DNA of 64,000 nucleotides from Alphaproteobacteria bacterium 41-28 (GTDB lineage Bacteria; Pseudomonadota; Alphaproteobacteria; UBA9655), in NCBI GenBank assembly GCA_001897795.1, contig MKUL01000022.1, forward strand, positions 3,363 to 67,362, in the 5' to 3' direction. Position 1 is the first letter of the stretch, and every line of letters starts with the position of its first letter. The notes beneath the pieces are model-generated. The model ran no database searches, had not been told where the DNA came from, and saw nothing but the letters and a program-made list of their open reading frames with translations. This document shows, piece after piece, positions 3,025-56,429 of the stretch. The translations under genes were made by a program, and so were the position numbers.

Positions 3025-3106
3025 AAAATTCGTCATGATAGTCCCTTCCCAAATCTTTAAAAACACACTAAGCTCTTAAAAAAACACATTAAGAAGGAGC
3101 ATCACA

Positions 3107-3718
3107 ATGGCTTTTGAATTACCACCACTTCCTTATAAAGAAGATGCCCTTGAACCCCACATTTCGGCACGAACTCTAAGCTTTCACCATGGAAAACACC
3201 ATAAGGCCTACGTGACAAAGTTAAATGAGCTTATTCAAGGAACAGATCTTGAAAAGAAATCCTTAGAGGAAATCATTCGTATCTCAGTGAATAACGCTGA
3301 CAAGGTAGCTATTTTTAACAATGCGGCTCAAGACTGGAATCATACCTTTTATTGGCATTCCATGCGTCCTCAGGGAGGGGGAGAACCTAAGGGAAATTTA
3401 GCTGAAAAAATCACCAAAGACTTTGGAAGCTTTGGTGAATTTGCAGAGCTTTTCAAGCAAGCCGGTGTCGGCCAATTTGGCAGCGGTTGGGCATGGCTTG
3501 TATTGGATAAAGATGGAAATTTAAAGGTTACGAAAACGCCGAACGCTGATCTTCCTATGGTTCACGGTCAGAAGGCCCTTCTCACTTGTGATGTATGGGA
3601 GCATGCTTACTACCTCGATTATCAAAATCGTCGTCCCGATTATATTAGTATCTTTCTCAAAAACCTTGCTAATTGGGACTTTGCTCAAAAGAATTTTGAG
3701 AAAGGGATGAAAGCCTAA
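3107..3718 (+). CDS. sodB: Fe/Mn superoxide dismutase
   Basis: MAFELPPLPY..LEPHISARTLSFHHGKHH, WNHTFYW and DVWEHAYYLDYQNRRPDY are canonical Fe/Mn-SOD motifs. AAGGAG RBS upstream. Confidence 0.95.
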   Translation: MAFELPPLPYKEDALEPHISARTLSFHHGKHHKAYVTKLNELIQGTDLEKKSLEEIIRISVNNADKVAIFNNAAQDWNHTFYWHSMRPQGGGEPKGNLAEKITKDFGSFGEFAELFKQAGVGQFGSGWAWLVLDKDGNLKVTKTPNADLPMVHGQKALLTCDVWEHAYYLDYQNRRPDYISIFLKNLANWDFAQKNFEKGMKA

Positions 3719-5649: not shown

Positions 5650-5713
5650 AAAGATTTTGTCTCCATAGAGGAAAGAAGACATATTTTCTCCTAACTAACG
5701 AATAGAGGGAATC

Positions 5714-5938
5714 ATGACAGTTACAAAAGAAAGAAAGGGTAAGAACACTTCTAAAAATTTGCAAATGAAGGAGAAAGAACAAACCTTTGAGGAAAGAAAA
5801 CGGGCAGCTTATTCAGCAATGGGCAAACTAGGGGGGCTTGCACGGGCAAAACAAATGGCTGAAAAGGGGTTTTCAAAGGCCGATGAATTTAAAGTCCCTT
5901 CTAAAAAAGATCTTAAGCCAAAGGGTAAGAAAAAATAA
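5714..5938 (+). CDS. Small lysine-rich protein, weakly KGG stress-motif-like
   Basis: EERKRAAYSAMGKLGGLARAK resembles one KGG-type repeat. GAGGGA RBS. The function is uncertain. Confidence 0.4.
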   Translation: MTVTKERKGKNTSKNLQMKEKEQTFEERKRAAYSAMGKLGGLARAKQMAEKGFSKADEFKVPSKKDLKPKGKKK

Positions 5939-7353: not shown

Positions 7354-8265
7354 ATGGATTTTAATGATCTTTATATTCTCATCTCTCTTTCCAAAACAAA
7401 GTCCCTGACAAAAACGTCAGAAGAGTTTGAGATGAAAGTTCCTTCTGTCAGCAAAAGGCTTGAGAAACTTGAACTAGCTTTTGGTCAAAAAATTTATTAC
7501 CGGAAATCAAAAGGAATTGAGTTTACACGAGCAGGGGAGGAGCTCATTGAACTTTATTCTGAAATTCTTCAAAAGGTTGAGTTTCTCCAGCAAAAGCTAA
7601 AGGGAGATATAGAAAAAAAAGAAACTCTAACTCTCTCAACAACCACAGCCATCCTTGTTACAACAATGGGCCAGTATATTAAAGCTTTTGTGGAGGAGTA
7701 CCCAAAGGTTGTTATGACTTTACTCGCTCACAATTCAGAAAGAGAACTTTCTCAATACAGCTCAGATATTATTGTTTGGACTTATTTGAAAGACAGGCGA
7801 GACCTTAAACAGGAGCTTCTTTATACCTATGAATTTGGGCTGTTTGCAAGCAAGTCATATCTTTCTAAGATGGGCGTTCCTTCGGATGGTTTTAAGACAG
7901 GTCAACACCGAATTCTTAAATTTGTGGAATTTAATACAACACCTTACGGGGGAGGCTCAAATGCTTTATTTGATTTTCTGCCATTTTCCTCCCAAGTTGA
8001 AACAGTTTATGTTAATGCAGGATTAACGATGTATAACATGATTAAGGAAGGGATTGGGATTGGTCCTGTTTGGACCAACCGTCCGGGGAGATTGAGCGAT
8101 AATTTGGTACGCCTATTCCCAGAGTTTACAACAAAAGTGGAAACTTATATTATGCATCGCAAAGATCTTCCTTCCTCTCACCCTGGAAGGCTTTTTGCTG
8201 AACACTTAAAAGTGTTTTTACTAAACCTAGATAAAGGTGCTTTAAATGAAAAAAATCCAACTTGA
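7354..8265 (+). CDS. LysR-family transcriptional regulator
   Basis: The N-terminal wHTH MDFNDLYILISLSKTKSLTKTSEEFEMKVPSVSKRLEKLELAFGQKIYYRKSKGIEFTRAGEEL is typical of LTTRs. The ATG at 7354 is preferred over the track start at 7270. Confidence 0.9.
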   Translation: MDFNDLYILISLSKTKSLTKTSEEFEMKVPSVSKRLEKLELAFGQKIYYRKSKGIEFTRAGEELIELYSEILQKVEFLQQKLKGDIEKKETLTLSTTTAILVTTMGQYIKAFVEEYPKVVMTLLAHNSERELSQYSSDIIVWTYLKDRRDLKQELLYTYEFGLFASKSYLSKMGVPSDGFKTGQHRILKFVEFNTTPYGGGSNALFDFLPFSSQVETVYVNAGLTMYNMIKEGIGIGPVWTNRPGRLSDNLVRLFPEFTTKVETYIMHRKDLPSSHPGRLFAEHLKVFLLNLDKGALNEKNPT

Positions 8266-18353: not shown

Positions 18354-18446
18354 TAATCAATTTTTATATTTGTTGACAATTTCTGTATACAAATTAAAAT
18401 AAAAAATCATTTTAAAAATGAATCCATGTGTTTTGATGAGGTTTTT

Positions 18447-41783: not shown

Positions 41784-42524
41784 ATGAAGATACTTTGCAT
41801 TACCCATGCTGACTTTGAAACTCCTGGGATTATAGAAGACTGGGCAAAGCAACGAGGCTATGGCTTTTCGATCTGCAAACCTTATAAGGGGGAGGACTGT
41901 TTAACCTATCAGTCTTTTGATGTCTTGATTGTTATGGGAGGCCCCCAAAGCCCCTTAGAGATTGAAAAGGATCCCTACCTGAAAGATGAGATCAAACTTA
42001 TTACCCAGGCCATTCACGACAGGAAAATTGTTTTAGGGTTTTGCTTAGGGGCTCAGCTTATTGGAGAAGCCCTTGGCGGGAAAACAGAACGGAGCCCCGA
42101 AAAAGAGGTTGGCGTTTTCCCTATTGTTTTAACAGAAAAAGGACGTGAAGATCCTTTGTTTGAAGGACTTCCAAATCTCATTCCTGTCATTCATTGGCAC
42201 AACGACATGCCGGGGAAAACTGTGAATTCTGTCGTATTGGCTTATAGTGAAGGGTGTCCTCGGCAAATTTTGCGGTACACCCCCTCTACTTATGGTTTTC
42301 AGTGTCATCTCGAAATTACCAAAGAGGGGATAAAGGACATGATCAAAGCCTGCCCGGGGGATTTAAAACCAAGCCGTTTCACACAAACCTCTGAAGAACT
42401 GTTGCAGCAAAACTATGAAGCGATCAATCAAATTATGGTCAAAATTTTAGATCGGGTCGTGGGTTTGAAAGAGGGAGACGAAGTGGAGTCGGATTATAGA
42501 ATGATTAAGATAAGTAAGCGATAA
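41784..42524 (+). CDS. Class I glutamine amidotransferase-like protein
   Basis: Nucleophile elbow GFCLGAQL and the His-x-Glu pair (FQCHLE). Confidence 0.8.
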   Translation: MKILCITHADFETPGIIEDWAKQRGYGFSICKPYKGEDCLTYQSFDVLIVMGGPQSPLEIEKDPYLKDEIKLITQAIHDRKIVLGFCLGAQLIGEALGGKTERSPEKEVGVFPIVLTEKGREDPLFEGLPNLIPVIHWHNDMPGKTVNSVVLAYSEGCPRQILRYTPSTYGFQCHLEITKEGIKDMIKACPGDLKPSRFTQTSEELLQQNYEAINQIMVKILDRVVGLKEGDEVESDYRMIKISKR

Positions 42525-42530
42525 TTAAAG

Positions 42531-42566
42531 GTAAGGGCATGAGATTGTTAGAACTCATGCCCTTAC
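42531..42566. terminator. Bidirectional hairpin between the convergent GATase and lectin genes
   Basis: Perfect 13-bp stem: GTAAGGGCATGAG (42531-43) pairs with CTCATGCCCTTAC (42554-66). Confidence 0.7.
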
Positions 42567-42585
42567 TCAAATATAAAACACTAAA

Positions 42586-43122
42586 TTAATTGTTATTTAT
42601 TTTTTCCAATTTCCAGAGTTGATCTGGATTATATGACTTTGTTTTTGGAGTATAAGATTCTATACTTGGTCTTACCACACCTTTGTCATCTTCAGCTTTA
42701 GGGAAAGCTTCTAAATATCTTGTCCCCCCATTCTTGGTATGACACCCAATGCGATAATAACCATTACTCACAGGTATTATAAACCAATCCTGATCTTGAC
42801 TATAGGATTGAGGCTTTGGTCTTGCCACTTTATCTTTTGGAAAAGCTTCTAAGTATCTTATTCCACCATTTCGTGTCCGGCAACTAATACGACGATAATT
42901 ATTTCTCGTTTCTATAGACCAATTTTGATCTTGACTCAGTGACTCGGGTCTTGGTCTTACCTTACCATTCCCCTCTCTAGGGAAAGCTTCAAGATACCTC
43001 TTACCACGGTTTTTTGTATGGCAAAAAATTTTATATTCACCATCCGCGGGATCCATCGCTTCTGCACTTGTTGGAAGAAAAGGTAAACAGAGGATAAAAA
43101 GTAATTTTTGATATTTTTTCAT
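42586..43122 (-). CDS. Secreted ricin-B-type (beta-trefoil, (QxW)3) lectin-like protein
   Basis: Signal peptide ...PTSAEA. There are three ~45-aa internal repeats, each with YxI.C.T.N.G.RYLEAFP and ending in QNW, QDW and QLW respectively. Confidence 0.75.
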   Translation of the reverse strand: MKKYQKLLFILCLPFLPTSAEAMDPADGEYKIFCHTKNRGKRYLEAFPREGNGKVRPRPESLSQDQNWSIETRNNYRRISCRTRNGGIRYLEAFPKDKVARPKPQSYSQDQDWFIIPVSNGYYRIGCHTKNGGTRYLEAFPKAEDDKGVVRPSIESYTPKTKSYNPDQLWKLEKINNN

Positions 43123-43456
43123 TGTTGTATCTCCTTTTAAAGTTGTTAATAAGCGAGAACCTTATTAGAGGTATAGGGAGGCTAAAATAAGGCTCTCTTG
43201 CGTCTAGTTTCTAATTTTGGACGAAAATGAGAATTGTCAAAAAATACACAAAAACTTTTAACTGGGGTCAGATGAAACAATGAGAAGTTTGGGAAAGGCT
43301 TTGCAAATTTATTTTTGGGGCTGACACCTGCGTAAAAAACCCGCAGAAACTTATCAAAATAGGAAAGAACTTTACAATAAAAATCTCTTAATTAACTTGT
43401 CTAAGTGTTTCAAGTTGGTATTCTTGTGACTAAAACTTAAGAGAGATGCCATTTTT

Positions 43457-46400
43457 ATGCAGGAAACACAAATTTTCTTCCCTCAAGAACTCTATTCAAA
43501 ATACTTGGTGACAATTGGTGGCATCCATTTTACGCGGCGCGAAATTGATGTAATTTCTTGTCTTCTCCATGGAAGAAGTCCCAAAAAAATAGCATCACTT
43601 TTAGTATTAAAACCAATGACAAAAGCCTCTGATAATTCTGAACATAAGTTTCTTCAACCAAGAGGTGTTGAAACCCATATCCGTAATATCAAGTACAAGC
43701 TTAAATATAATACGCGCGAAGAGATCATCGATTTTATTGAAGCCTCTGATAAATATATCTTTTTAAAAAAGTACTATTCTCTTTTACGGATTAATGTGGC
43801 TTTTGAAAAAAGCTTGAGAGACATTTCAAAGTTGAAGCATAAAGTAGAGTCTGTTTTCTTTATTGCTCAAGGGAAGGGTAGAGATCCCCTGATATCTCAC
43901 CTAAAAACCCATTTAACCCTTGCAGGTCTCACTGTTTCGAAGGGAGCTCGTAAAAAATACGATGACTATGTCATTTATGTTCTTCCGAAGTTGCTGGAAG
44001 AGAAAGATCTTTCTTCCCATTTTAAAAAATCAAATCAAAGTTCGGATAAGATTCTTTTTCTTCTTCAAGAAAAGAGTGATCATAAACACATTCCTGAAGA
44101 GTTTAAAGGCTCTAACGTTGTGGATTTTGTTAAATATGAAAATTATTATTTTTCTTTTTTTGCAATTCTCAATAAGCTTCTCCCAAATCTTAATTTTGAG
44201 AAAATCATTTCTGTTTTTGAGGATGAATATAAGAAAATAAATGTATCAATGGAGGCTCAGCCTGCGGAATTCAAGCTACCACAAATCGTTCTAGACGAAA
44301 ATAAGTTAGGATATCATTTCATTCATCCACTAAGGTGGGGTCTTTTATCGGCACTCTCTGTTGTCGGATTTTTTGGGTTTGGATTTCTAGCTTTTCAATG
44401 GAGCAAAGCTCCAGAAAGTTATTCTATTCGATCGGATTTGAATCTTCCTACAGAATCTGCACTTCTTCATCGCTCCGAACTCATTGCGCAGCTTGATAAG
44501 AAATTTAAAGAACATAAAGATATCCAAGCTATTGCTATTGTTGGGCCGGGAGGGGCTGGCAAAACAACCCTTGCCAGACAGTATGCCCATTCTCAAAAAT
44601 CGCCTCTTGTTTGGGAGATTAATGCAGAAACAAAAGAAAGTCTTAAGAGTTCTTTTGAACATTTAGCGCAAGCTTGTTCCAAAACGGAAGAAGATCAAAA
44701 GACATTAAGAGAGCTCCAAGAAATAAAAAACTCTAGAGAAAGGGAAGAAAAAATTATTCAGTTTGTGAAGGAGAGATTGAGGAGCTATTCAGATTGGTTC
44801 TTGATTTTTGATAACATTGAAAAATTTACAGATATTCAACATCACTTTCCTCAGGATTTTGAGACGTGGGGACGAGGAAAAATCATTCTAACGACCCGCG
44901 ACAATAACATTCAAAATAACAAACATATTAATCACGCCTTGCAAATAGGCGAATTAAATCCCAACCAAAAATTAGACCTTTTTACGAAAATCATGAGCAA
45001 TGGAAACGCCAGAGCCTTCTCTCGTGCTCAAGCTGAAAATACTAAAAAGTTCTTAGAAGAAATCCCCCCTTATCCCTTGGATATATCGATCGCCGCTTAC
45101 TATATCAAAGTGACAGGCATTCCTTATGAAAGATATTTAGAGCGTGTTAAAGGATATGATAATGATTTTGCATCAGTGCAAGAGAGCCTCTTAAAAGAAT
45201 CAGGAGAATATACAAAAACACGGTACAGCATTATCACTTTATCTTTAAAACATTTAATAAAGGCTCATAAGGATTTTGCAGAGCTTTTGTTATTTATAAG
45301 CCTCCTTGATTCTCAAAATATTCCAAGGGATTTATTGGAAAAATATAAAAATCATTCTGTTGTTGATAACTTCCTCTATCATTTAAAAAAATATTCTTTG
45401 ATTACAAACGAATCACCTCATCTTACTCATTCCCCTCCAACTTTTTCAATTCATCGTAGCACTCAAGCAATAAGTTTAAATTATCTTACGAAAAAGTTAG
45501 CCTTGGGTAGAAACTATCACCTGATTACATCCATTACTCTTACCCTAGAGCGTTATATTGCTGATATTCTTGAACAACAACATTTCTTAAAAACAAAAGA
45601 CTTAAGAAGTCATTGTGAAAGGTTTTTGAGTCATGATCATTTATTAACAAAAGCTATGAAAGGAGCGATTGGTGGTGTACTAGGGGGTATTTATGTAGAT
45701 CAAATGAATCATAAAAGAGGAAAGCAGCTTCTTGAAGAAAATCTCACAATTCTAAAAAAATTTAATAATGAAAATCATATTCGGATTTCTCAAATTTTAC
45801 TTTATTTAGGGTTAATTAATTGGGATCTTGGTAATTTTGAAAAAGCTAAAGATTTTTATGAGCAAAGCCTCATTGTGTCCAAAAAACACCTTCCTGAAAA
45901 CCCTTCAGGAGTTGCTCGAACCCTAGCAAGTTTAGGACATGTTCTTAGGCAGTTAGGTCATTATGAAAAAGCTCAAGATGCACTTGAACAAAGTTTACTT
46001 ATTTGTAAGAAATATTGTCCAGAAAATCATCTTAGAGTTGCTGTAGTTTTAAGCTACCTAGGATTTGTTCATTATGAAGTTGCTCGCTATGAAAAAGCAA
46101 TAAATCACCTTGAGAGGAGCCTAACTATTTATAAAAAATATTACCCCGAAAACTATTATGGAATTGCTCGTGCACTCGTCATATTGGGAATGAGTTATTC
46201 AAAGCTGGGGAATTATAAAAAAGCTAAGGATATACTTGAACAGAGTCTTATCAATCATTTAAATTATTATCCTAAAAATCATTATTCTACTTTTTGGGTT
46301 TTGGGACAGTTAGGCAATGTTCATACGAGGCTAGGTCATTACGAAAAAGCGAGAGGTCTATTAAAACAATGTCTGGTAACTTTCGAAAAATATTATGGTA

Positions 46401-46762
46401 TTAATCAAGATGTGACGGCTAGGGTTTTATTAGATTTAGGTGAGACATATCTTGCCGAAGGAAATATAGAAGTTGCTGAAAATCTCATGAAAAAGTCCTT
46501 GAAAATCTTCCAACAAAATAAACACCCTTTGAGCTATGCTTCTTTAGAAAGTTTAGCAGAATTATATTTGAAAAAATCAAGAAAGAATGTGAACGTTCAG
46601 GAAACTTCGAATTTTAAAACCAAAGCTCGGGATTACCTCAAACAAGCCCTTGAGGTAGTTAAAATTCACTTTCCAGAAGATTCCCCCCATATTACAAGAA
46701 TCCAGCGCAAACTTAATGAACTAGAACTTCACGATGCCCTTAAAAGACCCCACCTTCATTGA
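43457..46762 (+). CDS. STAND NTPase: N-terminal LuxR-type HTH, alpha/beta region, hydrophobic segment, NB-ARC-like ATPase, ~7 TPR (KLC-like) repeats
   Basis: HTH FTRREIDVISCLLHGRSPKKIASLL...ETHIRNIKYKL. Hydrophobic aa 293-314 WGLLSALSVVGFFGFGFLAFQW. P-loop IVGPGGAGKTTLA (nt 44543-), Walker B LIFDN, and ILTTRD. The TPR units have 42-aa periodicity, for example LASLGHVLRQLGHYEKAQDALEQSL. Confidence 0.85.
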   Translation: MQETQIFFPQELYSKYLVTIGGIHFTRREIDVISCLLHGRSPKKIASLLVLKPMTKASDNSEHKFLQPRGVETHIRNIKYKLKYNTREEIIDFIEASDKYIFLKKYYSLLRINVAFEKSLRDISKLKHKVESVFFIAQGKGRDPLISHLKTHLTLAGLTVSKGARKKYDDYVIYVLPKLLEEKDLSSHFKKSNQSSDKILFLLQEKSDHKHIPEEFKGSNVVDFVKYENYYFSFFAILNKLLPNLNFEKIISVFEDEYKKINVSMEAQPAEFKLPQIVLDENKLGYHFIHPLRWGLLSALSVVGFFGFGFLAFQWSKAPESYSIRSDLNLPTESALLHRSELIAQLDKKFKEHKDIQAIAIVGPGGAGKTTLARQYAHSQKSPLVWEINAETKESLKSSFEHLAQACSKTEEDQKTLRELQEIKNSREREEKIIQFVKERLRSYSDWFLIFDNIEKFTDIQHHFPQDFETWGRGKIILTTRDNNIQNNKHINHALQIGELNPNQKLDLFTKIMSNGNARAFSRAQAENTKKFLEEIPPYPLDISIAAYYIKVTGIPYERYLERVKGYDNDFASVQESLLKESGEYTKTRYSIITLSLKHLIKAHKDFAELLLFISLLDSQNIPRDLLEKYKNHSVVDNFLYHLKKYSLITNESPHLTHSPPTFSIHRSTQAISLNYLTKKLALGRNYHLITSITLTLERYIADILEQQHFLKTKDLRSHCERFLSHDHLLTKAMKGAIGGVLGGIYVDQMNHKRGKQLLEENLTILKKFNNENHIRISQILLYLGLINWDLGNFEKAKDFYEQSLIVSKKHLPENPSGVARTLASLGHVLRQLGHYEKAQDALEQSLLICKKYCPENHLRVAVVLSYLGFVHYEVARYEKAINHLERSLTIYKKYYPENYYGIARALVILGMSYSKLGNYKKAKDILEQSLINHLNYYPKNHYSTFWVLGQLGNVHTRLGHYEKARGLLKQCLVTFEKYYGINQDVTARVLLDLGETYLAEGNIEVAENLMKKSLKIFQQNKHPLSYASLESLAELYLKKSRKNVNVQETSNFKTKARDYLKQALEVVKIHFPEDSPHITRIQRKLNELELHDALKRPHLH

Positions 46763-47414
46763 CCTAACACATACCTTAACCCCAAGTATTCCTTCCTGGG
46801 ATGGCAGTTGTGGGTTTCAGCATGACCTAAGGGATGATTATGATCCTGCCGCTCCTTATCAGGTACGCACCTATGATATTCACATGCAGGCAGGAATGGG
46901 GACGCATATCGATGCACCGGCCCATTTTATTCCGGGAGGTCGCTGTATCAATGATCTGAATTTGCAGGAACTCATTGCTCCCTGTATTGTTATGAATGTC
47001 TCAAACCAAATGCATGAGCGATACTCGTTGAAGGTAAAAGATATTGAATCCTTTGAAACACAGCATGGAGTTATTCCCCCAGGCTGTTTTGTGATTGTTT
47101 ATTCAGGATGGGAACGATATTGGACGACACCCGACAAGTATCGTAATAATCTCGTTTACCCGAGTCTTTCAAAAGAAGCTGCACAAGCTTTACTAGACAG
47201 GCAAATTGTTGGTTTGGGAATTGATACGCTCTCTCCTGATCGACCCGAAGATGGTTTTCCAGTGCATAAATTAATCTTAGGTGCTGATAAATATATTGTG
47301 GAAAATGTCGCAAATGCGTTAAAGTTGCCACCTACGGGAGCATACACGGTTGTGTGCCCTCTCAAGATTGAAAAGGGGACGGAATCCCCAATTAGGCTTA
47401 TAGGGATGTCGTGA
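46734..47414 (+). CDS. Cyclase-family (kynurenine-formamidase-like) metal-dependent hydrolase
   Basis: GMGTHIDAPAHF (HxGTHxDxPxH-type motif) and GLGIDTLSPD. The start overlaps the STAND gene end by 29 nt. Confidence 0.8.
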   Translation: MPLKDPTFIDLTHTLTPSIPSWDGSCGFQHDLRDDYDPAAPYQVRTYDIHMQAGMGTHIDAPAHFIPGGRCINDLNLQELIAPCIVMNVSNQMHERYSLKVKDIESFETQHGVIPPGCFVIVYSGWERYWTTPDKYRNNLVYPSLSKEAAQALLDRQIVGLGIDTLSPDRPEDGFPVHKLILGADKYIVENVANALKLPPTGAYTVVCPLKIEKGTESPIRLIGMS

Positions 47415-47439
47415 AGTTAGATATAAAGGAAAAATAACC

Positions 47440-48450
47440 ATGAAATGGAAGATTCTAGCTTTTTTGATTTGTTTTCTTAGTCTTAATTCTTCCCTTCTCC
47501 ATGCTTTTGAGCAGAAGGTGATTCAGGTGAAGGGTCTTGAATTTTGGACTGAAGCTTTTGGTAAAAAAGAGGACCCAGCATTACTCCTTATTATGGGCAG
47601 TGGTGCTCAAGGATTGTCCTGGCACCAAAAATTTTGTGAGCAATTAGCAGATAAAGGCTTCTATGTTATTCGCTACGATCATCGTGATGTAGGTCTTTCT
47701 TCTAATATAGACTATAAGGAATCTCCCTATACCCTTTTGGATATGGCTAAAGATTCCATTGGTATACTCAATAAATATGGTATTCGGAAGGCTCATATCG
47801 TCGGGGCTTCAATGGGGGGGCCAATTGCAATGTTGATTGGAGCTCATTTTCCCGATCGTGTTTCCACTCTGACTTTGATGGTAACGTCACCTGACATGCG
47901 CTCCAATCTTGATGCCCTTCAAGGCAAGCCCTCGGAAAGTCCTCTTTCGCCTCCTAAACTTGTTATTCTATCTTGGATAAAAAGCTTCGTAAGCAATCCA
48001 CCCAAAACCTTGCCTGAAAAAATGAAAAATTCCTTAGAAGGTAGCCGGCTATTAAATGGAGAGAAAGTTCCGTTTGATGAGGATCTCAATCATCAATTGG
48101 CTCTTCAAAGTATTAAGAGAACCCGTGATCCACTCAGTATGTTCAATCACCTTAAAGCTCTTAATGCGAGTTATGATTTATACAAGCAAGCTTTAACCCA
48201 AATTAAAGTGCCTACCCTTATCCTGCATGGCGACCAAGATCCCATCTTTCCCATTGATCATGGTAAGGCTCTAAAACAAGCTATTCCCCATGCTCAGCTG
48301 GTCATTATTCCAGGCATGGGGCACGTTTTAAATACTCACTTTTATGGTGTTCTCATTGATAAAATTGTTAATCTAGCAAAAAAAGATGCGGTGCAACCTT
48401 GTGTTCAGAAAATCAGAACTGAGGACCAAATGGCCAATTCGCAAATTTGA
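47440..48450 (+). CDS. Secreted alpha/beta-fold hydrolase
   Basis: Signal peptide, HG-like LLLIMGSG, nucleophile elbow GASMGG, and late D/H residues (HGDQDPIFP, PGMGHV). Confidence 0.8.
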   Translation: MKWKILAFLICFLSLNSSLLHAFEQKVIQVKGLEFWTEAFGKKEDPALLLIMGSGAQGLSWHQKFCEQLADKGFYVIRYDHRDVGLSSNIDYKESPYTLLDMAKDSIGILNKYGIRKAHIVGASMGGPIAMLIGAHFPDRVSTLTLMVTSPDMRSNLDALQGKPSESPLSPPKLVILSWIKSFVSNPPKTLPEKMKNSLEGSRLLNGEKVPFDEDLNHQLALQSIKRTRDPLSMFNHLKALNASYDLYKQALTQIKVPTLILHGDQDPIFPIDHGKALKQAIPHAQLVIIPGMGHVLNTHFYGVLIDKIVNLAKKDAVQPCVQKIRTEDQMANSQI

Positions 48451-48553
48451 CATTCCTAAAAAGAGCTATAAAATATAATTATAGACTGAGCGAATTGTGT
48501 CTGGTGTAGTAACTGTATTATTTTGTCTAATTTCCAGTTATACCTATTCACTT

Positions 48554-48683
48554 AAACCCCTCACCCGCCACTTGCTTCGCGCGTGGCGACCTCTCCTACA
48601 AGGGGAGAGGTAACGCAGCAAGCACTTTATCACCTCTCCCCTTGTGGGAGAGGTCGCCGCGAAGCGGCGGGTGAGGGGGACTC
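48554..48683. repeat. 125-130-bp GC-rich compound palindromic element, copy A (MITE/REP-like)
   Basis: aaacccctcacccgccacttgcttcgcgcgtggcgacctctcctacaaggggagaggt - loop - acctctccccttgtgggagaggtcgccgcgaagcggcgggtgagggggactc. The arms are mutually complementary, and each arm holds its own sub-hairpin. Confidence 0.85.
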
Positions 48684-48742
48684 GCTTTGTCTTTTAGAAG
48701 ATGAAAGATATAGCTTGTGAAAACTGATTATAGATAACGATA

Positions 48743-49483
48743 ATGCATCTCTCCCTCTCTCCCCATACCCTTGTCGCGTGGCTTCAACAGCAACCAGCTG
48801 AGATGCTCACTTTGATTTTACTTATGAGTTGTGGTCTCATTATCCTTTTCATGATGCGTCTTTTTGGATCTGTTGGATTGATGGTGTATAGTTCTCTTGC
48901 AGTGGTTGTCGCTAACCTTCAGGTTCAAAAGGCTACGACATCTAAGTTTTTCGATGAACCAATTGCCCTGGGGACGGTCGTGTTTTCTTCGATTTTTATC
49001 GTCAGCAGCATTCTAACTGAATATTACGGGAAGGGCCAAGCGCGCAAAGCTGTATGGTTGAGCTTTTCGGGTATGATTGTGGTGTCCTTCCTTATGTTGC
49101 TCACCATTGGCTTCAAGCCAGCGGGTGGCTTTTATGAAGCCCATCAAGCCATGTGTGTCTTATTTTTTCCCGTCCCAGCATTGATTGTCGCAAGTCTGAT
49201 CGCTTACGCGGTTGGACAATTCAATGATATTTGGATTTTTGAGGCCCTCTCCCGTTTGACGGCTGGAAAGTTCTTATGGTTTAGATCCTTTGTGGCGACG
49301 CTGATAGGCGCTTTTTTAGATAATTTGATTTTTAGTGTCCTGGCATGGATGATTTTTGCGCCTCACCCCTTGCCATGGAAGACAGTCCTCTTTACCTATG
49401 TGCTAGGGACCTACATTTTGAGGGTATTGATTGCTCTCGTAAGCATCCCTTTTGTGTATTTAGCACGGCTCATGGTTAGATAA
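48743..49483 (+). CDS. yhhQ: YhhQ/DUF165 (VUT family) queuosine-precursor transporter
   Basis: Polytopic membrane protein with ALGTVVFSSIFIVSSILTEYYGKGQARKAV, close to the YhhQ pattern. It is coupled to tgt. Confidence 0.8.
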   Translation: MHLSLSPHTLVAWLQQQPAEMLTLILLMSCGLIILFMMRLFGSVGLMVYSSLAVVVANLQVQKATTSKFFDEPIALGTVVFSSIFIVSSILTEYYGKGQARKAVWLSFSGMIVVSFLMLLTIGFKPAGGFYEAHQAMCVLFFPVPALIVASLIAYAVGQFNDIWIFEALSRLTAGKFLWFRSFVATLIGAFLDNLIFSVLAWMIFAPHPLPWKTVLFTYVLGTYILRVLIALVSIPFVYLARLMVR

Positions 49484-50741: not shown

Positions 50742-51038
50742 ATGAAAAAGATATACATCGCTCTAGCACTTCTTTTAATAATGACGGTTCAACCGGCGAG
50801 GGCGGAAGATCAGCCTCCCTCAAAATCTAAGTGTCAAGAATTGTTTGAAAGATGTAAAGAAGCTTCCAATAAACTAACCGTAAAAATGTCTAAAGAGTCA
50901 GCTCTTTGTAAAGAGTGTATGGAGAAATGCAATAGTGCAGTTCTGACGATTTGTGCAAATGCCGAACCTAAAGAAAAGGCAAAATATTTGGAGAGCTTTA
51001 ATGCACATTCTTTAAATTGTAAGCAGAAGTGCCAATAG
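50742..51038 (+). CDS. Small secreted cysteine-rich helical protein, unknown function
   Basis: GGGAGG RBS, signal peptide ...TVQPARA, and 8 Cys (for example the CKECMEKC pattern). Confidence 0.6.
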   Translation: MKKIYIALALLLIMTVQPARAEDQPPSKSKCQELFERCKEASNKLTVKMSKESALCKECMEKCNSAVLTICANAEPKEKAKYLESFNAHSLNCKQKCQ

Positions 51039-51140
51039 TATTTTCATAAAGTAAGCCAGAGACATCTTCCCCTGTGTCATGTATGGACAGGCTTTAGATA
51101 AGTTACTAGACTCATTTGTGAAAGTGACTAGTACAGTCTG

Positions 51141-51270
51141 GAGCCCCCTCACCCGCCACTTGCTTCGCGCGTGGCGACCTCTCCCACAAGGGGGAGAGGT
51201 AACGCAGTCAGCACTTAATGACCTCTCCCCTTGTGGGAGAGACCGCCGCGAAGCGGCGGGTGAGGGGTAC
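51141..51270. repeat. 125-130-bp GC-rich compound palindromic element, copy B, same orientation as copy A
   Basis: Near-identical to 48554-48683, including the asymmetric central loop (aacgcagtcagcacttaatg versus aacgcagcaagcactttatc). Confidence 0.85.
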
Positions 51271-51304
51271 AAAACTTAAGTAGAAAAATAATGGAAGTAA
51301 CCCA

Positions 51305-54026: not shown

Positions 54027-55541
54027 ATGAAAATTATTTATTTATGTTTTTCAATAGTTACTTTACTTATATCTATACCATCTTATGCTATGGAGGAACC
54101 TGAGGAAGATGCCAAGACGAGACTTTCTCGTCATTGGAATGATCTTCGAGGCTCTCTTGAGGAACTCCGATCCTATCTTCCATCTTCAAGAGAAGAAGAG
54201 GTTGAAAATAACTCCGATCCGTTAAAAAGATGGAGAGAAAAGGACGTTGAAGAACTAAAAATTCGTAGATTTTATCCAGATAACCACATACCAATACAGT
54301 TTCGGGATAATAAGTATATTCTAAGGCTTTGCTGGGAAGCTTTAACAACAAAAGGACTTACTGAAACTCAGCGGGCTAATATTTGTATCAATTATGCAGT
54401 GGCTTCTTTAAAATTGGGTCGTGCTACTGATGCTATAGATTATTTTCAGAGGGCTTTAGACGAAAAGAATTCAGAATGTTGTTTTGTAATAGAGGGAAAT
54501 GATCGCCTTACAACTTTCTATTATACTGCTGAGGCATACAAAGATTTAGGGAAATACGACGAGGCGATTGAATTTTATGACCTTGCCTTGAGTGGGACTT
54601 CTCAACTAAATCGTTTTACATCAAAAAAAATTGCTAACCCCAATATCCTTTTTGGTTTGGCAGAAGCATTGAAGAAACGAGCATTAGAGGTTGGAAGTAT
54701 TGAAGCTTATAAAAAAGTCTTAGACCTTAAGGATAGAGGGGGGCGGGTTATGGTGGGCGGCCATGATCGGGTGAAGATTTACCTTCTTCTGGCAAATATA
54801 TTAACTGATGAAAATCTAAGTTGTGAAGCAGTCATTTATTATCATAAAGCCATAAATGCAAGAAATGAGAAAGGTTGTTTTCTTCTCGAAGGAGAAAAGC
54901 GAGAAGAAACCCTTTCCCGACTTATGAGTACGTTGACATCATCAGGCCAAGCAGGGTCTCATGAGGTCTATACGTTGGCAGGTAATACAAAAAATGAAAA
55001 AGGAGTATTTGCATACTCAGATTATGATCAAAAAAGGATTCTCAAAAAGAAGGTCGAGACGGAAAAAAGTCGGAAAAACCTATTTTGTATTCAAATGCCT
55101 GCCAACAGAAAACGTAAGCTACCCCTTTCATGCGATCAAGGCACTAAAAAAGATGAGAAAACCAAATCTATGGATAGTAGACCTGAGGAAAGTGCAGCTT
55201 ACTTAATCGATCGTATAAAAAACGCTTTAAAAGCTGCAGGTGATCTCAAGATTGCGCTAAGAAACTGCGATGAACTTCTAAAAAGGCAAAACTTAATGAG
55301 TGAAGAGGATTATGGTTCTGCATTAGAGCTGAAGTTGACCGTTTTACAAAAATTGGTGAAGGTATCTCAAGGAGAGGTAAAAAAGAAAATGCAGAAAGAA
55401 GCTGAGGAACTTGGTAATTTGTTAAGTGAACTTCAAGAGAGCCCAGAATCTTCTAGAATGGGGATTAACTTTTTACTTAGTGGTGAAAAGCCTCCTCTTA
55501 AAAAGTCAAGGCTTCAATCTGATGAAGCTTCAAATCCATAA
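54027..55541 (+). CDS. Secreted TPR-like protein, paralogue 1, with NLS-like clusters and a PPLKKSRL tail
   Basis: Signal peptide MKIIYLCFSIVTLLISIPSYA then MEEPEED. TPR-like units are present (AEAYKDLGKYDEAIEFYDLAL). Basic clusters are ANRKRKLP and the C-terminal EKPPLKKSRLQSD. Confidence 0.75.
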   Translation: MKIIYLCFSIVTLLISIPSYAMEEPEEDAKTRLSRHWNDLRGSLEELRSYLPSSREEEVENNSDPLKRWREKDVEELKIRRFYPDNHIPIQFRDNKYILRLCWEALTTKGLTETQRANICINYAVASLKLGRATDAIDYFQRALDEKNSECCFVIEGNDRLTTFYYTAEAYKDLGKYDEAIEFYDLALSGTSQLNRFTSKKIANPNILFGLAEALKKRALEVGSIEAYKKVLDLKDRGGRVMVGGHDRVKIYLLLANILTDENLSCEAVIYYHKAINARNEKGCFLLEGEKREETLSRLMSTLTSSGQAGSHEVYTLAGNTKNEKGVFAYSDYDQKRILKKKVETEKSRKNLFCIQMPANRKRKLPLSCDQGTKKDEKTKSMDSRPEESAAYLIDRIKNALKAAGDLKIALRNCDELLKRQNLMSEEDYGSALELKLTVLQKLVKVSQGEVKKKMQKEAEELGNLLSELQESPESSRMGINFLLSGEKPPLKKSRLQSDEASNP

Positions 55542-55699: not shown

Positions 55700-56356
55700 A
55701 TGAATAAAGTTTTTTTTGGTGTTTTAGTGGTGATGTTTGTTTTTGCAAGCAAGTCTTATGCAATGGAAGAGAGGGAGGAGACAACCTTCACTCCCAGGAA
55801 TAGACAGATTCCTGAGCAAAGTCCTCTTATGATTCTGGCCCAATATGAACAAAATCATGGCCGTCCCGAAAAAGCTCTTTCCATTTATAATGGGCTCTTG
55901 GCGTTAAATGAGTTAACTCCTCCCAATCTACCCCGATTGGCACCTCAAGACGAAGCGAAACTACTTTATCAAAAGGGATTGGCTCTAAAAATATTGAAGA
56001 AATATGAAGATGCACTCGTTACCTTCAAAGCTGCAAAGAAACTAAACAATTCGAGCGGAAGCTCTGCCTTAGAAGGAAAAGACCGTGCCATGGTTCAGGT
56101 TGAGATTGGGAAAATCCATATAAATTTGGACAAGCCACGCAAAGCTCTAAAAGTCCTTAACATGGCTCTTACAATGAAAAATCCAAATCCAAAAAATGCA
56201 AATGCCTTGCAATACGACGATAGACAACACACCAAACAGATGCTTAAAAAGCTCTATCGTATAATAGACCTTCTTCCCTCACAGCAAAATGCTTTGCAGA
56301 ATCCCTCCAATCCAGGAGGAAAAGAGATAAACTATATTTTTATTTCACATACGTAA
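55700..56356 (+). CDS. Secreted TPR-like protein, paralogue 2 (short form)
   Basis: Signal peptide ...FVFASKSYA then MEEREE. TPR-like units are present (LLYQKGLALKILKKYEDALVTFKAAKKL). The 3' end runs into module copy 3. Confidence 0.7.
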   Translation: MNKVFFGVLVVMFVFASKSYAMEEREETTFTPRNRQIPEQSPLMILAQYEQNHGRPEKALSIYNGLLALNELTPPNLPRLAPQDEAKLLYQKGLALKILKKYEDALVTFKAAKKLNNSSGSSALEGKDRAMVQVEIGKIHINLDKPRKALKVLNMALTMKNPNPKNANALQYDDRQHTKQMLKKLYRIIDLLPSQQNALQNPSNPGGKEINYIFISHT

Positions 56357-56390: not shown

Positions 56391-56429
56391 CCATAAGAGA
56401 GCCTTTTATTTCTCTTGGAGAATTTATGC

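What the first reader, a model, noticed from the sequence alone, without database searches (positions are those of the whole stretch)
43457..48450. LuxR-HTH / NB-ARC / TPR STAND protein coupled to a cyclase-family hydrolase and a secreted alpha/beta hydrolase, with a divergent lectin
Seen in sequence: a 1101-aa ORF combines four parts.
- A LuxR-type HTH whose recognition helix is displaced by a ~15-aa insertion (ASLLVLKPMTKASDNSEHKFLQPRGVETHIRNIKYKL).
- A ~120-aa alpha/beta-looking region (VFFIAQGKGRDPLISHLKTHLTLAGLTV...).
- An NB-ARC-like NTPase (GPGGAGKT, LIFDN, ILTTRD).
- About 7 KLC-type TPRs.
Its last 29 nt overlap the start of a GMGTHIDAPAHF cyclase-family hydrolase gene. A secreted GASMGG hydrolase gene follows 25 nt later. 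A (QxW)3 lectin gene is divergent upstream, and a palindromic mobile-like element (48554) closes the block.
Established: STAND NTPases with TPR sensors are the chassis of MalT/AfsR-type regulators, bacterial Avs antiviral proteins and eukaryotic NLRs.
Inference: this could be a ligand-sensing switch that controls, or acts together with, the coupled hydrolases. I do not recognise this combination (N-terminal DNA-binding domain, STAND core, overlapping cyclase-family enzyme) as a described system.
Basis: partly seen in the sequence, partly recalled or inferred. Interest (0 to 1): 0.7.

Follow-up and report, generated by a model that had tools for sequence, protein, structure and literature searches.

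The report
STAND regulator cassette inserted beside cyclase
The large LuxR–NB-ARC–TPR gene is real, but it sits next to the cyclase and hydrolase genes only because a two-gene cassette (lectin plus regulator) landed there; it belongs to a large, unstudied family of membrane-anchored switch-type regulators found in protist-symbiont-like bacteria.

Summary
The proposed STAND–cyclase–hydrolase system is not supported.

- **Source.** The protein is identical to hypothetical protein BGO67_09420 of the MAG 'Alphaproteobacteria bacterium 41-28'. That MAG holds at least 10 full-length paralogues. The family also occurs in Paracaedibacter, Odyssella and Caedibacter, with about 900 clusters at 50% identity.
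- **No conserved link.** None of about 118 family genes examined has a cyclase or a related hydrolase nearby.
- **Ancestral layout.** In three related lineages the closest cyclase homologues have the window's GATase gene, or a remnant of it, directly upstream.
- **Insertion.** The lectin and STAND genes form a 4.17-kb AT-rich insert flanked by a 9-bp direct repeat (ATGCCCTTA) that contains the cyclase start codon. The 29-nt overlap is therefore an insertion scar.
A transmembrane-like helix before the NB-ARC domain is conserved in 103 of 103 members. A palindrome is conserved upstream of six paralogues. Upstream neighbours tend to be divergently transcribed, and in two genomes they are lasso-peptide precursor genes.

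Best reading: an AfsR-like STAND transcription switch whose likely target is the divergent lectin gene. The membrane topology remains a puzzle.

The parts
41784..42524 (+). Class-I glutamine amidotransferase gene; ancestral upstream partner of the cyclase gene
   Evidence: Pfam GATase E 5e-17. It is 75-77% identical to the gene that directly precedes the cyclase homologue in L026 and L022/L023. A remnant of it (aa 203-230) abuts the cyclase in L029.
42533..42564 (.). Hairpin AAGGGCATGAG-N10-CTCATGCCCTT between the convergent GATase and lectin genes; its right arm contains the left copy of the 9-bp repeat
   Evidence: Read directly from the sequence.
42556..42564 (+). Left copy of the 9-bp direct repeat ATGCCCTTA (a duplicated cyclase start), preceded by CTC as in the homologues' ...GCTCAT junction
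42565..46733 (.). 4169-bp AT-rich insert carrying exactly two genes (lectin and STAND) and their shared intergenic control region
   Evidence: Homology to L029, L022 and L026 is lost after the GATase 3' end and resumes at the cyclase ATG. GC is 0.34-0.38 here against 0.44-0.46 in the flanks.
42586..43122 (-). Secreted beta-trefoil (QxW)3 lectin-like protein, 178 aa; divergent neighbour and the likeliest regulatory target
   Evidence: translation. RicinB_lectin_2 is sub-threshold. Three internal DNA repeats (families D2 and D7).
43155..43197 (.). Conserved palindrome or hairpin GAGAACCTTATT-N19-AATAAGGCTCTC, about 32 nt upstream of the lectin ATG and about 300 nt upstream of the STAND ATG; the loop carries GGGAGG (CCUCCC on the lectin strand)
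   Evidence: Present at the same position upstream of paralogues P0003, P0004, P0005 and P0006, and in diverged form upstream of P0015. Changes between copies are compensatory. It folds in all five sequences tested.
43457..46762 (+). STAND protein, 1101 aa; identical to BGO67_09420 of Alphaproteobacteria bacterium 41-28
43529..43744 (+). LuxR/GerE four-helix HTH (aa 25-96)
   Evidence: Pfam GerE aa 25-55. AF2 helices 27-36, 42-49, 68-82 and 87-96 with pLDDT >90. Family consensus.
43604..43648 (+). Lineage-specific insertion of about 15 aa (VLKPMTKASDNSEHK) in the helix 2-helix 3 turn of the HTH
   Evidence: Alignment. pLDDT <50 for aa 52-64.
43850..44254 (+). Family-specific alpha/beta domain (aa ~132-266) with no significant structural neighbour and no conserved polar residues
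   Evidence: AF2 N-terminal model: pLDDT 83.6, pTM 0.83. Best Foldseek PDB hit E 0.038 (SARM1; otherwise flavodoxin-like folds). Conserved residues are hydrophobic or Gly.
44336..44404 (+). Transmembrane-like hydrophobic helix (aa ~294-316)
   Evidence: It is the most hydrophobic 19-aa window in 103 of 103 members and always lies 65-88 aa before the P-loop. Mean Kyte-Doolittle score 2.21. The sequence itself is not conserved. K+R count is 4.1 on the N-side against 2.4 on the C-side.
44462..45496 (+). NB-ARC NTPase with helical and winged-helix domains (aa ~336-680): P-loop GPGGAGKT, Walker B LIFDN, TTR, PxPLD, and IHR at the MHD position
   Evidence: Pfam NB-ARC. Invariant columns G363, G365, G366, G368, K369, T480, P540, L541 and H666. 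Foldseek hits 6mfv_A (E 4.5e-12) and Apaf-1 3shf.
45518..46741 (+). TPR array (aa ~688-1095), 42-aa KLC/LGN-like units
   Evidence: Pfam TPR_12, TPR_10 and TPR_MalT. 126-nt DNA periodicity. Foldseek hits to LGN and KLC1.
46734..46742 (+). Right copy of the 9-bp direct repeat ATGCCCTTA, which is the cyclase start codon plus 6 nt
46733..46762 (+). Last nine STAND codons (DALKRPHLH) and the stop codon, read out of frame across the cyclase 5' end
   Evidence: The family C-terminal consensus ends about 11 aa after 'RIQ'. pLDDT is low at the tail.
46734..47414 (+). Cyclase-family (PF04199) metal-dependent amidohydrolase. It belongs to the resident GATase-cyclase pair, not to the STAND cassette
   Evidence: Pfam E 3e-38. 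Arylformamidase TIGR03035 scores 53 bits against a 223-bit cut-off. The nearest solved structures are isatin hydrolases, E 6e-25. Homologue contexts.
47440..48450 (+). Signal-peptide-bearing alpha/beta hydrolase, EstT/macrolide-esterase-like but below family cut-offs
   Evidence: Pfam Abhydrolase_1. NCBIfam macro_16_ester scores 241 bits against a 420-bit cut-off. It is not found next to cyclase homologues elsewhere.
48557..48679 (.). GC-rich ~125-nt palindromic dispersed repeat; a second copy lies at 51145-51268

Best explanation
**The gene and its family (shown).** The 1101-aa gene is one of at least ten paralogues, in a Holosporales-like alphaproteobacterial MAG, of a large uncharacterised family. 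The family architecture is fixed: LuxR-type HTH, a family-specific alpha/beta domain, a single transmembrane-like helix, an NB-ARC NTPase and a TPR array.

**Why it sits beside the cyclase (shown by comparison).** The gene and the divergently transcribed secreted lectin-like gene form a 4.17-kb AT-rich two-gene cassette. The cassette was inserted exactly at the start codon of a cyclase-family gene. This split an older GATase-cyclase pair and duplicated 9 bp (ATGCCCTTA). The STAND reading frame lost its own end, so it now runs 29 nt into the cyclase gene. The overlap and the apparent operon with the two hydrolases are a scar of that insertion, not a conserved system.

**How it probably works (inferred).** It acts as an AfsR-like or MalT-like STAND transcription switch.
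- The TPR array binds a ligand or protein.
- Nucleotide exchange in the NB-ARC domain drives oligomerisation.
- Oligomerisation brings the N-terminal LuxR HTH domains together on a palindromic operator in the shared intergenic region.
- This controls the divergent gene, here the lectin. In other paralogues the divergent genes are lasso-peptide precursors, Sel1-repeat proteins and proteins of unknown function.

The cyclase and hydrolase are probably now transcribed by read-through from the STAND gene, as a by-product.
For: **Identity and paralogy.**
- a 100% match to BGO67_09420 and nine further BGO67 paralogues at 41-54% identity over 92-99% of the length.
- homologues in Ca. Paracaedibacter symbiosus, Ca. 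Odyssella acanthamoebae and Caedibacter sp.
- 904 clusters at 50% identity match the N-terminal module at E<=1e-30. Nearly all complete ones are ~1100-1300 aa.

**No conserved link to the cyclase or hydrolase.**
- tblastn finds none near ~22 family genes in genome and assembly loci.
- It finds none near 96 family genes in 77 metagenome loci, 60 with at least 1 kb downstream.

**Ancestral layout.**
- In L026 a GATase (77% identical to window 41784-42524) overlaps a cyclase (71% identical).
- In L022/L023 a GATase (75%) precedes a cyclase (79%) by 10 nt.
- L029 is syntenic with the window: tsf-rpsB are 83% identical at the nucleotide level and the cyclase is 80% identical. A GATase remnant there ends 19 nt before the annotated cyclase gene (5001), 34 nt before the position that aligns with the window's start codon. 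There is no lectin or STAND gene.

**Junctions.**
- Homology to those loci is lost shortly after the conserved 3' part of the GATase gene, whose spacer to the cyclase varies between homologues, and it resumes at the cyclase ATG.
- ATGCCCTTA lies at 42556-42564 and 46734-46742. The chance of such a match within the ~40-nt left junction is about 1.5e-4 (my arithmetic).
- The insert has low GC.

**Regulator model.**
- The HTH recognition helix is conserved family-wide.
- The NB-ARC motifs are invariant.
- All eight MAG paralogues examined, the window copy included, have a divergent upstream gene 246-485 nt away by the gene calls.
- Across metagenome loci 53 of 80 upstream neighbours are divergent, against a background of about 38%.
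- A palindrome with compensatory changes lies ~290-300 nt upstream of six paralogues and ~30-45 nt from the divergent gene's ATG.
- Lasso-peptide precursor genes and their B, C and D genes lie divergent from P0005 and P0006 in the MAG and from P0038 in P. symbiosus. P0038 and P0005 are 56% identical.
Against: - No experiment or transcript data are available. DNA binding, the operator and the target are inferences.
- The window copy carries a ~15-aa disordered insertion in the HTH turn. This could weaken or change DNA binding.
- With a single transmembrane helix, the HTH and the NTPase cannot both be cytoplasmic. That does not fit a classical STAND regulator.
- No shared sequence motif was found in upstream regions across genomes. 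The palindrome is shared only within one subclade of paralogues and could equally be an RNA hairpin in the leader of the divergent gene.
- No transposase, integrase or terminal inverted repeats mark the insert, so the insertion mechanism is unknown.
- The 9-bp repeat could in principle have mediated a deletion in other lineages. That would need three independent precise losses.
- No terminator-like site was predicted after STAND, so co-expression with the cyclase is likely. A newly acquired functional link cannot be excluded.
Confidence: 0.7

Rival explanations
1. The STAND protein, the overlapping cyclase-family enzyme and the secreted alpha/beta hydrolase form one functional system, in which a ligand-sensing switch controls or works with the two hydrolases.
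For: - All three genes are on the same strand.
- The STAND and cyclase ORFs overlap by 29 nt, and the hydrolase follows after a 25-nt gap.
- No terminator-like site was predicted between STAND and cyclase.
- After the insertion the cyclase has no room for a promoter of its own outside the STAND coding region, so the three genes are probably co-transcribed.
Against: - None of about 118 family genes has a cyclase or related hydrolase nearby.
- The five other cyclase contexts examined lack the STAND gene.
- Three of those five show GATase, or its remnant, abutting the cyclase.
- The overlap is explained by the insertion junction.
- The hydrolase is not conserved next to cyclase homologues either.
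Confidence: 0.06
2. The family is an NLR-like or Avs-like conflict (anti-phage or anti-mobile-element) system. The TPR array senses an invader protein, and the N-terminal HTH, alpha/beta domain and transmembrane helix act as the effector, for example by disrupting the membrane on oligomerisation.
For: - STAND-plus-TPR chassis.
- Strong paralogue expansion and diversification.
- Several copies lie beside mobile-element genes: TraD/MobA, transposases, HipA, resolvase.
- A conserved transmembrane helix recalls the transmembrane effectors of some bacterial NLR-like proteins (from my own knowledge, not tested here).
Against: - PADLOC finds no Avs or other defence-family model, only generic TPR hits.
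- The LuxR recognition helix is strongly conserved.
- The pairing with lasso-peptide clusters is conserved across two genomes.
- Upstream palindromes are conserved. These features fit a transcription factor better.
- The alpha/beta domain has no conserved catalytic residues.
Confidence: 0.12
3. The family consists of secreted effectors delivered into the protist host, eukaryote-like NB-ARC/TPR proteins. The hydrophobic helix anchors them in host membranes.
For: - The family is found in Paracaedibacter, Odyssella and Caedibacter genomes, amoeba symbionts by name and my own knowledge, and in related MAGs.
- Paralogues lie among Sel1, TPR and F-box genes, typical of symbiont effector repertoires.
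- This would remove the topology paradox.
Against: - A bacterial LuxR HTH is conserved at the N-terminus.
- The operator-like palindromes and divergent-gene arrangement point to action on the bacterium's own DNA.
- No secretion signal was identified, and none can be tested with these tools.
Confidence: 0.1

Closest known systems
AfsR and large SARP regulators of Streptomyces (N-terminal DNA-binding domain, NB-ARC, TPR)
   Same: - Same order of parts: DNA-binding domain at the N-terminus, then an NB-ARC STAND switch, then a TPR sensor.
- Some members lie next to biosynthetic clusters (here lasso peptides).
- AfsR is described as an NLR-type transcription switch in bioRxiv 10.64898/2026.09.02.748808.
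- NCBIfam gives a weak AfsR hit over the TPR part only: 41.6 bits against a 1430-bit cut-off.
   Different: - The DNA-binding domain is a LuxR/GerE four-helix HTH. It is not an OmpR-type winged helix with a BTAD domain.
- An extra alpha/beta domain and a transmembrane-like helix lie between the HTH and the NB-ARC domain.
- The MHD position reads IHR instead of xHD.
- The hosts are alphaproteobacterial symbionts, not actinomycetes.
MalT and LAL (large ATP-binding regulators of the LuxR family)
   Same: - A STAND NTPase, a TPR-like sensor and a LuxR-type HTH in one polypeptide.
- Pfam TPR_MalT hit (E 9e-17) and a weak NCBIfam MalT hit over the P-loop region.
   Different: - The domain order is reversed: MalT and LAL carry the HTH at the C-terminus.
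- The NTPase here is of the NB-ARC (AP-ATPase) type.
- MalT has no transmembrane helix.
ToxR/CadC-type membrane-bound one-component regulators
   Same: - Cytoplasmic N-terminal DNA-binding domain, a single transmembrane helix and a large C-terminal sensor.
- The charge bias predicts N-in/C-out, as in ToxR.
   Different: - Those proteins use OmpR-type winged-helix domains and small periplasmic sensor domains.
- None is known (to my knowledge) to carry a P-loop NTPase beyond the membrane.
Avs and bacterial NLR-like antiviral STAND proteins
   Same: A STAND NTPase with a C-terminal TPR sensor and a variable N-terminal module; paralogue diversification.
   Different: - No PADLOC Avs or NLR model matches.
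- The N-terminal module is a conserved HTH rather than a nuclease, protease or similar effector.
PH0952-type archaeal STAND-TPR protein (PDB 6mfv)
   Same: It is the best structural match to the model's NB-ARC-TPR body (Foldseek E 4.5e-12).
   Different: Only 16% identity. The match cannot cover the N-terminal module, because the N-terminal model has no significant PDB neighbour.

Membership tests
STAND / NB-ARC (AP-ATPase) NTPases | P-loop (GxxGxGKT), Walker B, sensor-I TTR, GxP-like motif and a winged-helix His (MHD position), in order, over about 300 aa | tested here: met
   Pfam NB-ARC E 1.4e-13 against a 23.5-bit cut-off. GPGGAGKT, LIFDN, TTRD, PYPLD and SIHRS are present, with G363, G365, G366, G368, K369, T480, P540, L541 and H666 invariant in 103 sequences. 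Foldseek hits 6mfv and Apaf-1. The Asp of MHD is replaced by Arg.
LuxR/GerE-type HTH proteins | Four-helix GerE fold with a contiguous helix-turn-helix | tested here: inconclusive
   Family consensus is canonical. In the window protein Pfam GerE matches only the first half (aa 25-55, 28.3 bits against a 23.5-bit cut-off). A ~15-aa disordered insertion splits the turn. AF2 still packs the four helices at pLDDT >90. DNA binding was not tested.
AfsR / SARP-NB-ARC-TPR regulators | N-terminal OmpR-type winged-helix DNA-binding domain plus BTAD domain | tested here: not met
   No Trans_reg_C or BTAD hit in Pfam. The NCBIfam AfsR model scores 41.6 bits against a 1430-bit cut-off, over the TPR part only.
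MalT / LAL regulators | N-terminal STAND ATPase with a C-terminal LuxR HTH | tested here: not met
   The HTH is N-terminal (aa 25-96) and the NTPase follows it. The MalT model scores 31 bits against a 537-bit cut-off.
Avs / known anti-phage STAND systems | Match to curated defence-system protein models | tested here: not met
   PADLOC-DB gives only generic 'TPR repeats containing protein' hits for the STAND protein and none for the cyclase, hydrolase or lectin.
FxSxx-COOH system TPR protein (NF040586) | Score above the NCBIfam equivalog cut-off | tested here: not met
   186 bits against a 300-bit cut-off, covering only aa 336-631.
Conserved STAND-cyclase-hydrolase gene cluster (the proposed system) | Co-occurrence of the three genes across genomes | tested here: not met
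   0 of about 118 family genes. All five other cyclase contexts lack the STAND gene.
Kynurenine formamidase (KynB, TIGR03035), for the cyclase gene | Score above the equivalog cut-off | tested here: not met
   53.4 bits against a 223-bit cut-off. Isatin hydrolases are the closer solved relatives. The gene is a PF04199 member of unassigned specificity.
Membrane-bound one-component regulators (ToxR-like topology) | A single transmembrane helix between a cytoplasmic DNA-binding domain and an extracytoplasmic sensor | tested here: inconclusive
   The hydrophobic helix is conserved in 103 of 103 members and the charge bias favours N-in. Topology was predicted only from hydropathy and charge. No experimental test or dedicated predictor was available.

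The most novel reading that the evidence does not exclude
The family may be a new class of trans-envelope, NLR-like one-component regulators.

- The LuxR HTH and the alpha/beta domain would sit in the bacterial cytoplasm.
- The single helix would span the inner membrane, N-in and C-out as the charge bias predicts.
- The NB-ARC-TPR switch would then work in the periplasm.

This could be feasible in bacteria living inside a host cell, because host ATP may reach the periplasm of bacteria that import it. In that case ligand-triggered NB-ARC oligomerisation outside the membrane would cluster the HTH domains inside and switch on the divergent 'cargo' gene (lectin, lasso peptide or Sel1 protein).
Probability: 0.15. 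Interest if true: 0.8.

Novelty: new variant of a known kind. Interest (0 to 1): 0.35.

Why it matters
**The proposed three-gene system.** It does not exist as a conserved unit, so the locus should not be carried forward as a candidate new defence or signalling system.

**What remains.** A large family (about 900 clusters at 50% identity) is annotated only as 'tetratricopeptide repeat protein'. It combines a LuxR DNA-binding head, a predicted membrane anchor and an NB-ARC/TPR switch, and it is heavily expanded in protist-symbiont-like bacteria.

**Why that would matter if confirmed.**
- If these proteins are cluster-situated regulators, they would give handles on how such bacteria control secreted lectins, repeat proteins and lasso peptides. 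The conserved pairing with lasso-peptide genes suggests they are.
- They would extend the AfsR-type idea of an NLR acting as a transcription factor beyond actinomycetes.
- The single-helix topology is an unresolved oddity that is worth one experiment.

Tried and rejected
- **PADLOC scan** of the four proteins: only generic TPR hits, so there is no support for a known defence system.
- **Sequence search of aa 1-330 against PDB**: no match at E<=1.
- **Foldseek of the N-terminal model**: nothing better than E 0.038. The weak SARM1-TIR and flavodoxin-like hits are not evidence of a TIR domain, and the domain has no conserved acidic or polar residues.
- **Search for a shared k-mer motif** in 20 upstream regions across genomes: only A/T-rich low-complexity words. 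There is no family-wide operator consensus.
- **Rfam scan of 42400-48800**: only sub-threshold hits, all on the palindromic repeat.
- **Terminal inverted repeats or mobility genes in the 4.17-kb insert:** none seen.
- **Lectin homologues next to other family members:** none. The 'cargo' gene differs from paralogue to paralogue.
- **Literature searches** for this family in Paracaedibacter, Odyssella and Holosporales papers: no description found.
- **ATP/ADP translocase in the window**: none among the ten ORFs scanned.
The scan with the N-terminal module was far more specific.

Full report

Yes. The ORF list gives four genes:
- a 1101-aa ORF at 43457..46762 (+);
- a 226-aa ORF at 46734..47414 (+) that overlaps it by 29 nt;
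- a 336-aa ORF at 47440..48450 (+), 25 nt further on;
- a divergent 178-aa ORF at 42586..43122 (-).

Pfam assigns these domains:
- Large protein: a partial GerE/LuxR HTH (aa 25-55), NB-ARC (aa 342-520) and a strong TPR_12/TPR_10 array.
- Second ORF: PF04199 'Cyclase' (E 3e-38).
- Third ORF: Abhydrolase_1 (E 3e-31).
- Divergent ORF: RicinB_lectin_2, just below threshold.

The window matches the MAG 'Alphaproteobacteria bacterium 41-28', in which the large protein is identical to hypothetical protein BGO67_09420.

**2. The protein belongs to a large, fixed-architecture family.**

- One search returned hundreds of full-length homologues at 39-56% identity over ~99% of the length.
- Nine further paralogues come from the same MAG.
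- Other members come from Ca. Paracaedibacter symbiosus, Ca. Odyssella acanthamoebae and a Caedibacter MAG. These are Holosporales-type symbionts of protists.
- A profile of the N-terminal 267 aa alone finds 904 clusters at 50% identity with E<=1e-30. The complete ones are almost all 1100-1300 aa long.

Alignments of 25 and 103 members and two AlphaFold models (pLDDT 84, pTM 0.63; N-terminal part, pLDDT 83.6, pTM 0.83) give the anatomy:
- LuxR four-helix HTH, aa 27-96.
- A long linker helix, aa 100-124.
- An alpha/beta domain, aa ~132-266.
- A hydrophobic helix, aa ~294-316.
- NB-ARC with helical and winged-helix subdomains, aa ~336-680.
- A TPR solenoid, aa ~688-1095.

Foldseek places the NB-ARC-TPR body next to an archaeal STAND-TPR protein (6mfv, E 4.5e-12), the LGN and KLC TPR domains, and Apaf-1. 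The N-terminal module has no significant structural neighbour; the best hit is E 0.038. Its conserved positions are hydrophobic or glycine, so I read the alpha/beta domain as structural rather than catalytic.

**3. The HTH insertion.**

It is specific to a small lineage.
- The family consensus is the canonical '...KKIASFLSIxPRTVETHIRNIMxKL'.
- The window protein and two paralogues of the same MAG (P0003 and P0004) carry lysine-rich insertions of about 15, 28 and 22 aa in the turn between helices 2 and 3.
- The insertion is disordered in the model (aa 52-64, pLDDT <50).
- The flanking helices, including the recognition helix PRGVETHIRNI, stay conserved.

The domain is therefore probably still under selection. 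Whether it still binds DNA is untested.

**4.

- In 103 of 103 family members the most hydrophobic 19-residue window lies 65-88 residues before the P-loop.
- Its mean Kyte-Doolittle score is 2.21.
- The sequence is not conserved but the hydrophobicity is, which is the signature of a lipid-exposed helix.
- The N-terminal flank is richer in Lys and Arg: 4.1 against 2.4, with net charge +3.3 against +0.5.

By the positive-inside rule the HTH side is cytoplasmic and the NB-ARC-TPR side is not. With one membrane pass the DNA-binding domain and the NTPase cannot both be cytoplasmic. I could not resolve this with the tools available. It is the strangest feature of the family.

**5. The link to the cyclase and hydrolase is not conserved.**

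- tblastn with the window's cyclase, hydrolase, lectin and GATase proteins found none of them near ~22 family genes in genome and assembly loci.
- It found none near 96 family genes in 77 metagenome loci, even at E<0.05. Of those genes, 60 have at least 1 kb of downstream sequence.
- Neighbours vary: Sel1-repeat genes, TraD/MobA, transposases, HipA, tandem paralogues and lasso-peptide clusters.

**6. The cyclase has an older partner, and the STAND gene was inserted between them.**

The closest cyclase homologues (71-80% identity) were located on their contigs:
- **L026.** A GATase 77% identical to the window's gene at 41784..42524 overlaps the cyclase start.
- **L022/L023.** The same GATase (75% identical) ends 10 nt before the cyclase.
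- **L029.** This locus is syntenic with the window. tsf-rpsB are 83% identical at the nucleotide level and the cyclase is 80% identical at the protein level. A remnant of the GATase C-terminus (aa 203-230) ends 19 nt before the annotated cyclase gene at 5001, and 34 nt before the position that aligns with the window's start codon. There is no lectin or STAND gene.
- **L024/L025 and L030.** Other genes precede the cyclase, and there is again no STAND gene.

Junction alignments show where homology breaks. It is lost shortly after the conserved 3' part of the GATase gene, where the spacer to the cyclase varies between homologues. It resumes exactly at the cyclase ATG.

The sequence ATGCCCTTA occurs at both ends of the intervening 4169 bp:
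- at 42556-42564, preceded by CTC as in the homologues' '...GCTCAT...';
- at 46734-46742, which is the cyclase start.

A 9-mer match within the ~40-nt junction has a chance of about 1.5e-4 (my arithmetic). The insert has 0.34-0.38 GC, against 0.44-0.46 in the flanks. It carries exactly two genes. Its left end lies 21 nt beyond the lectin stop codon, and its right end lies at about the normal C-terminus of the family.

The last nine STAND residues (DALKRPHLH) and the stop codon are read out of frame from the cyclase 5' end. The 29-nt overlap is therefore an insertion scar.

No mobility gene or terminal inverted repeat is present, so the mechanism of insertion is unknown. Deletion in three other lineages is the less parsimonious alternative.

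**7. What the STAND protein more probably controls.**

- **Divergent neighbours in the MAG.** All eight paralogues examined, the window copy included, have a divergently transcribed upstream gene 246-485 nt away by the gene calls.
- **Divergent neighbours elsewhere.** Over all genome loci 14 of 20 are divergent. Over metagenome loci 53 of 80 are divergent, against a background of about 38% estimated from the same loci.
- **Alignable control regions.** The intergenic regions of five paralogues of this MAG can be aligned with each other.
- **A shared palindrome.** Six paralogues share GAGAACCTTATT-N17-19-AATAAGGYTCTC, which lies at 43155-43197 in the window. It lies ~290-300 nt before the STAND start and ~30-45 nt before the divergent gene's ATG. 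Changes between copies are compensatory. It folds as a hairpin in all five sequences tested. It could be a dimer operator or an RNA leader element.
- **Lasso-peptide clusters.** The divergent genes of P0005 and P0006, and of P0038 in Ca. Paracaedibacter symbiosus, are small peptides. They have a conserved leader '..YG[VI]xLExSASxLTQ' and a Gly-initiated core with Glu or Asp at about position 8. They lie beside Transglut_core3, Asn_synthase and ABC-transporter genes, which makes them lasso-peptide clusters.
- **Conserved pairing.** P0038 and P0005 are 56% identical, more than either is to most paralogues. The regulator-cluster pairing is therefore conserved across genomes.

This pattern is the one seen for cluster-situated STAND regulators such as AfsR/SARP and LAL proteins. 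AfsR was recently described as an NLR-type transcription switch (bioRxiv 10.64898/2026.09.02.748808). By analogy the window copy most likely regulates the divergent secreted lectin-like gene. This step is inference.

**8. The two enzymes.**

- **Cyclase.** It is a PF04199 member, but not a bona fide kynurenine formamidase (53 bits against a 223-bit cut-off). Its nearest solved relatives are isatin hydrolases.
- **Hydrolase.** It carries a signal-like N-terminus and resembles EstT/EstX-type macrolide esterases below their cut-offs (241 bits against 420).
- **No conserved pairing between them.** The cyclase homologues examined are followed by unrelated genes.

No terminator-like site was predicted between STAND, cyclase and hydrolase. 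The insertion cut the cyclase off from the GATase, so the cyclase and hydrolase are probably now expressed by read-through from the STAND gene. That link would be incidental.

**9. The 'closing' palindromic element.**

The element at 48557-48679 is a ~125-nt GC-rich palindromic repeat. It has a second copy at 51145-51268. It is a dispersed REP- or MITE-like repeat. It lies just downstream of the hydrolase gene but is no evidence that the gene block is a mobile or functional unit.

**10. Comparison with known systems, and verdict.**

- **STAND/NB-ARC:** all motifs are met, except that the MHD position reads IHR, with His666 invariant.
- **AfsR/SARP:** not a member. There is no OmpR-type winged helix or BTAD domain.
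- **MalT/LAL:** not a member. The HTH is at the wrong end.
- **Avs and other defence systems:** not a member. No PADLOC model matches.
- **ToxR/CadC:** the protein has the same predicted topology, but with a P-loop switch where the sensor would be.

I found no paper describing the family.

I rate the family a new variant of a known kind: a STAND transcription regulator. The specific finding, a coupled STAND-cyclase-hydrolase system, is refuted. Interest is modest at 0.35. The main open question is the membrane topology. If the NB-ARC-TPR part really lies outside the cytoplasm, the family would be a new type of receptor. I put that probability at about 0.15.

Noticed in passing
L003:2757-3050 and 7559-7669 (minus strand); L028:6272-6616 (minus strand): Lasso-peptide precursor genes lie directly divergent from STAND paralogues P0005, P0006 and P0038. 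They have the leader ..YG[VI]xLExSASxLTQ and a Gly-initiated core with Glu or Asp at about position 8. Transglut_core3, Asn_synthase and ABC-transporter genes follow. The same pairing occurs in two different genomes.
   Followed up: partly
window 43155-43197; L001 ~5703-5745; L003 ~3096-3136 and ~7714-7754; L031 ~1757-1797: A conserved 12-bp-stem hairpin or palindrome whose loop always contains CCUCCC on the divergent gene's strand. That is an anti-Shine-Dalgarno-like sequence, ~30-45 nt upstream of the divergent gene's AAGGAG ribosome-binding site. It could be a translational or operator element. No Rfam family matches it.
   Followed up: partly
window 48557-48679 and 51145-51268: Two copies (91-98% identical) of a ~125-nt GC-rich nested palindromic repeat bracket the Vut_1 (yhhQ-like) gene, the tgt-like gene I inferred from the translation (no domain scan was run) and a 98-aa secreted-protein gene. 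It is REP- or MITE-like. Spurious ORFs run across it (for example 51012-51279).
   Followed up: partly
window 44332-44353 versus 46735-46756: A 22-nt inverted repeat, 20 of 22 complementary, pairs the region coding for the start of the transmembrane helix inside the STAND gene with the first 22 nt after the A of the cyclase ATG. It is unlikely by chance (~0.01 by rough estimate). Its significance is unknown.
   Followed up: no
window 41784-42524 and 46734-47414; L026:5292-6699; L022:2-1172: A stand-alone class-I glutamine amidotransferase and a cyclase-family (isatin-hydrolase-like) gene form a conserved, often overlapping pair in several symbiont-like MAGs. In L026 an Abhydrolase_1 gene precedes them. 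The pathway is unknown.
   Followed up: partly
window 47440-48450: A signal-peptide-bearing alpha/beta hydrolase most similar to EstT/EstX-type macrolide esterases (241 bits against a 420-bit cut-off). It may be a secreted esterase of a symbiont.
   Followed up: no
window 45449-45460 (aa 664-668, SIHRS): At the NB-ARC 'MHD' switch position the family has an invariant His followed by a nearly invariant Arg instead of Asp. [quoted passage not shown]
   Followed up: no
window 18426-21368, 54027-55541, 55700-56356, 56415-58070: Other AT-rich genes for repeat proteins lie in the same window: one 980-aa Sel1-repeat protein and three adjacent TPR proteins. This fits a symbiont genome rich in eukaryote-like repeat proteins.
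   Followed up: no
L008, L012, L015 (genome contigs): Full-length family members sit on short contigs of MAGs labelled Flavobacteriales, Nitrospirota and 'Rickettsia typhi'. Given that the family is otherwise confined to Holosporales-like genomes, these are probably mis-binned contigs.
   Followed up: no
L029:4694-5001: In the closest relative the GATase gene has been reduced to an 84-nt remnant (aa 203-230) between rpsB and the cyclase. The GATase-cyclase pair is therefore itself being eroded in this clade.
   Followed up: partly
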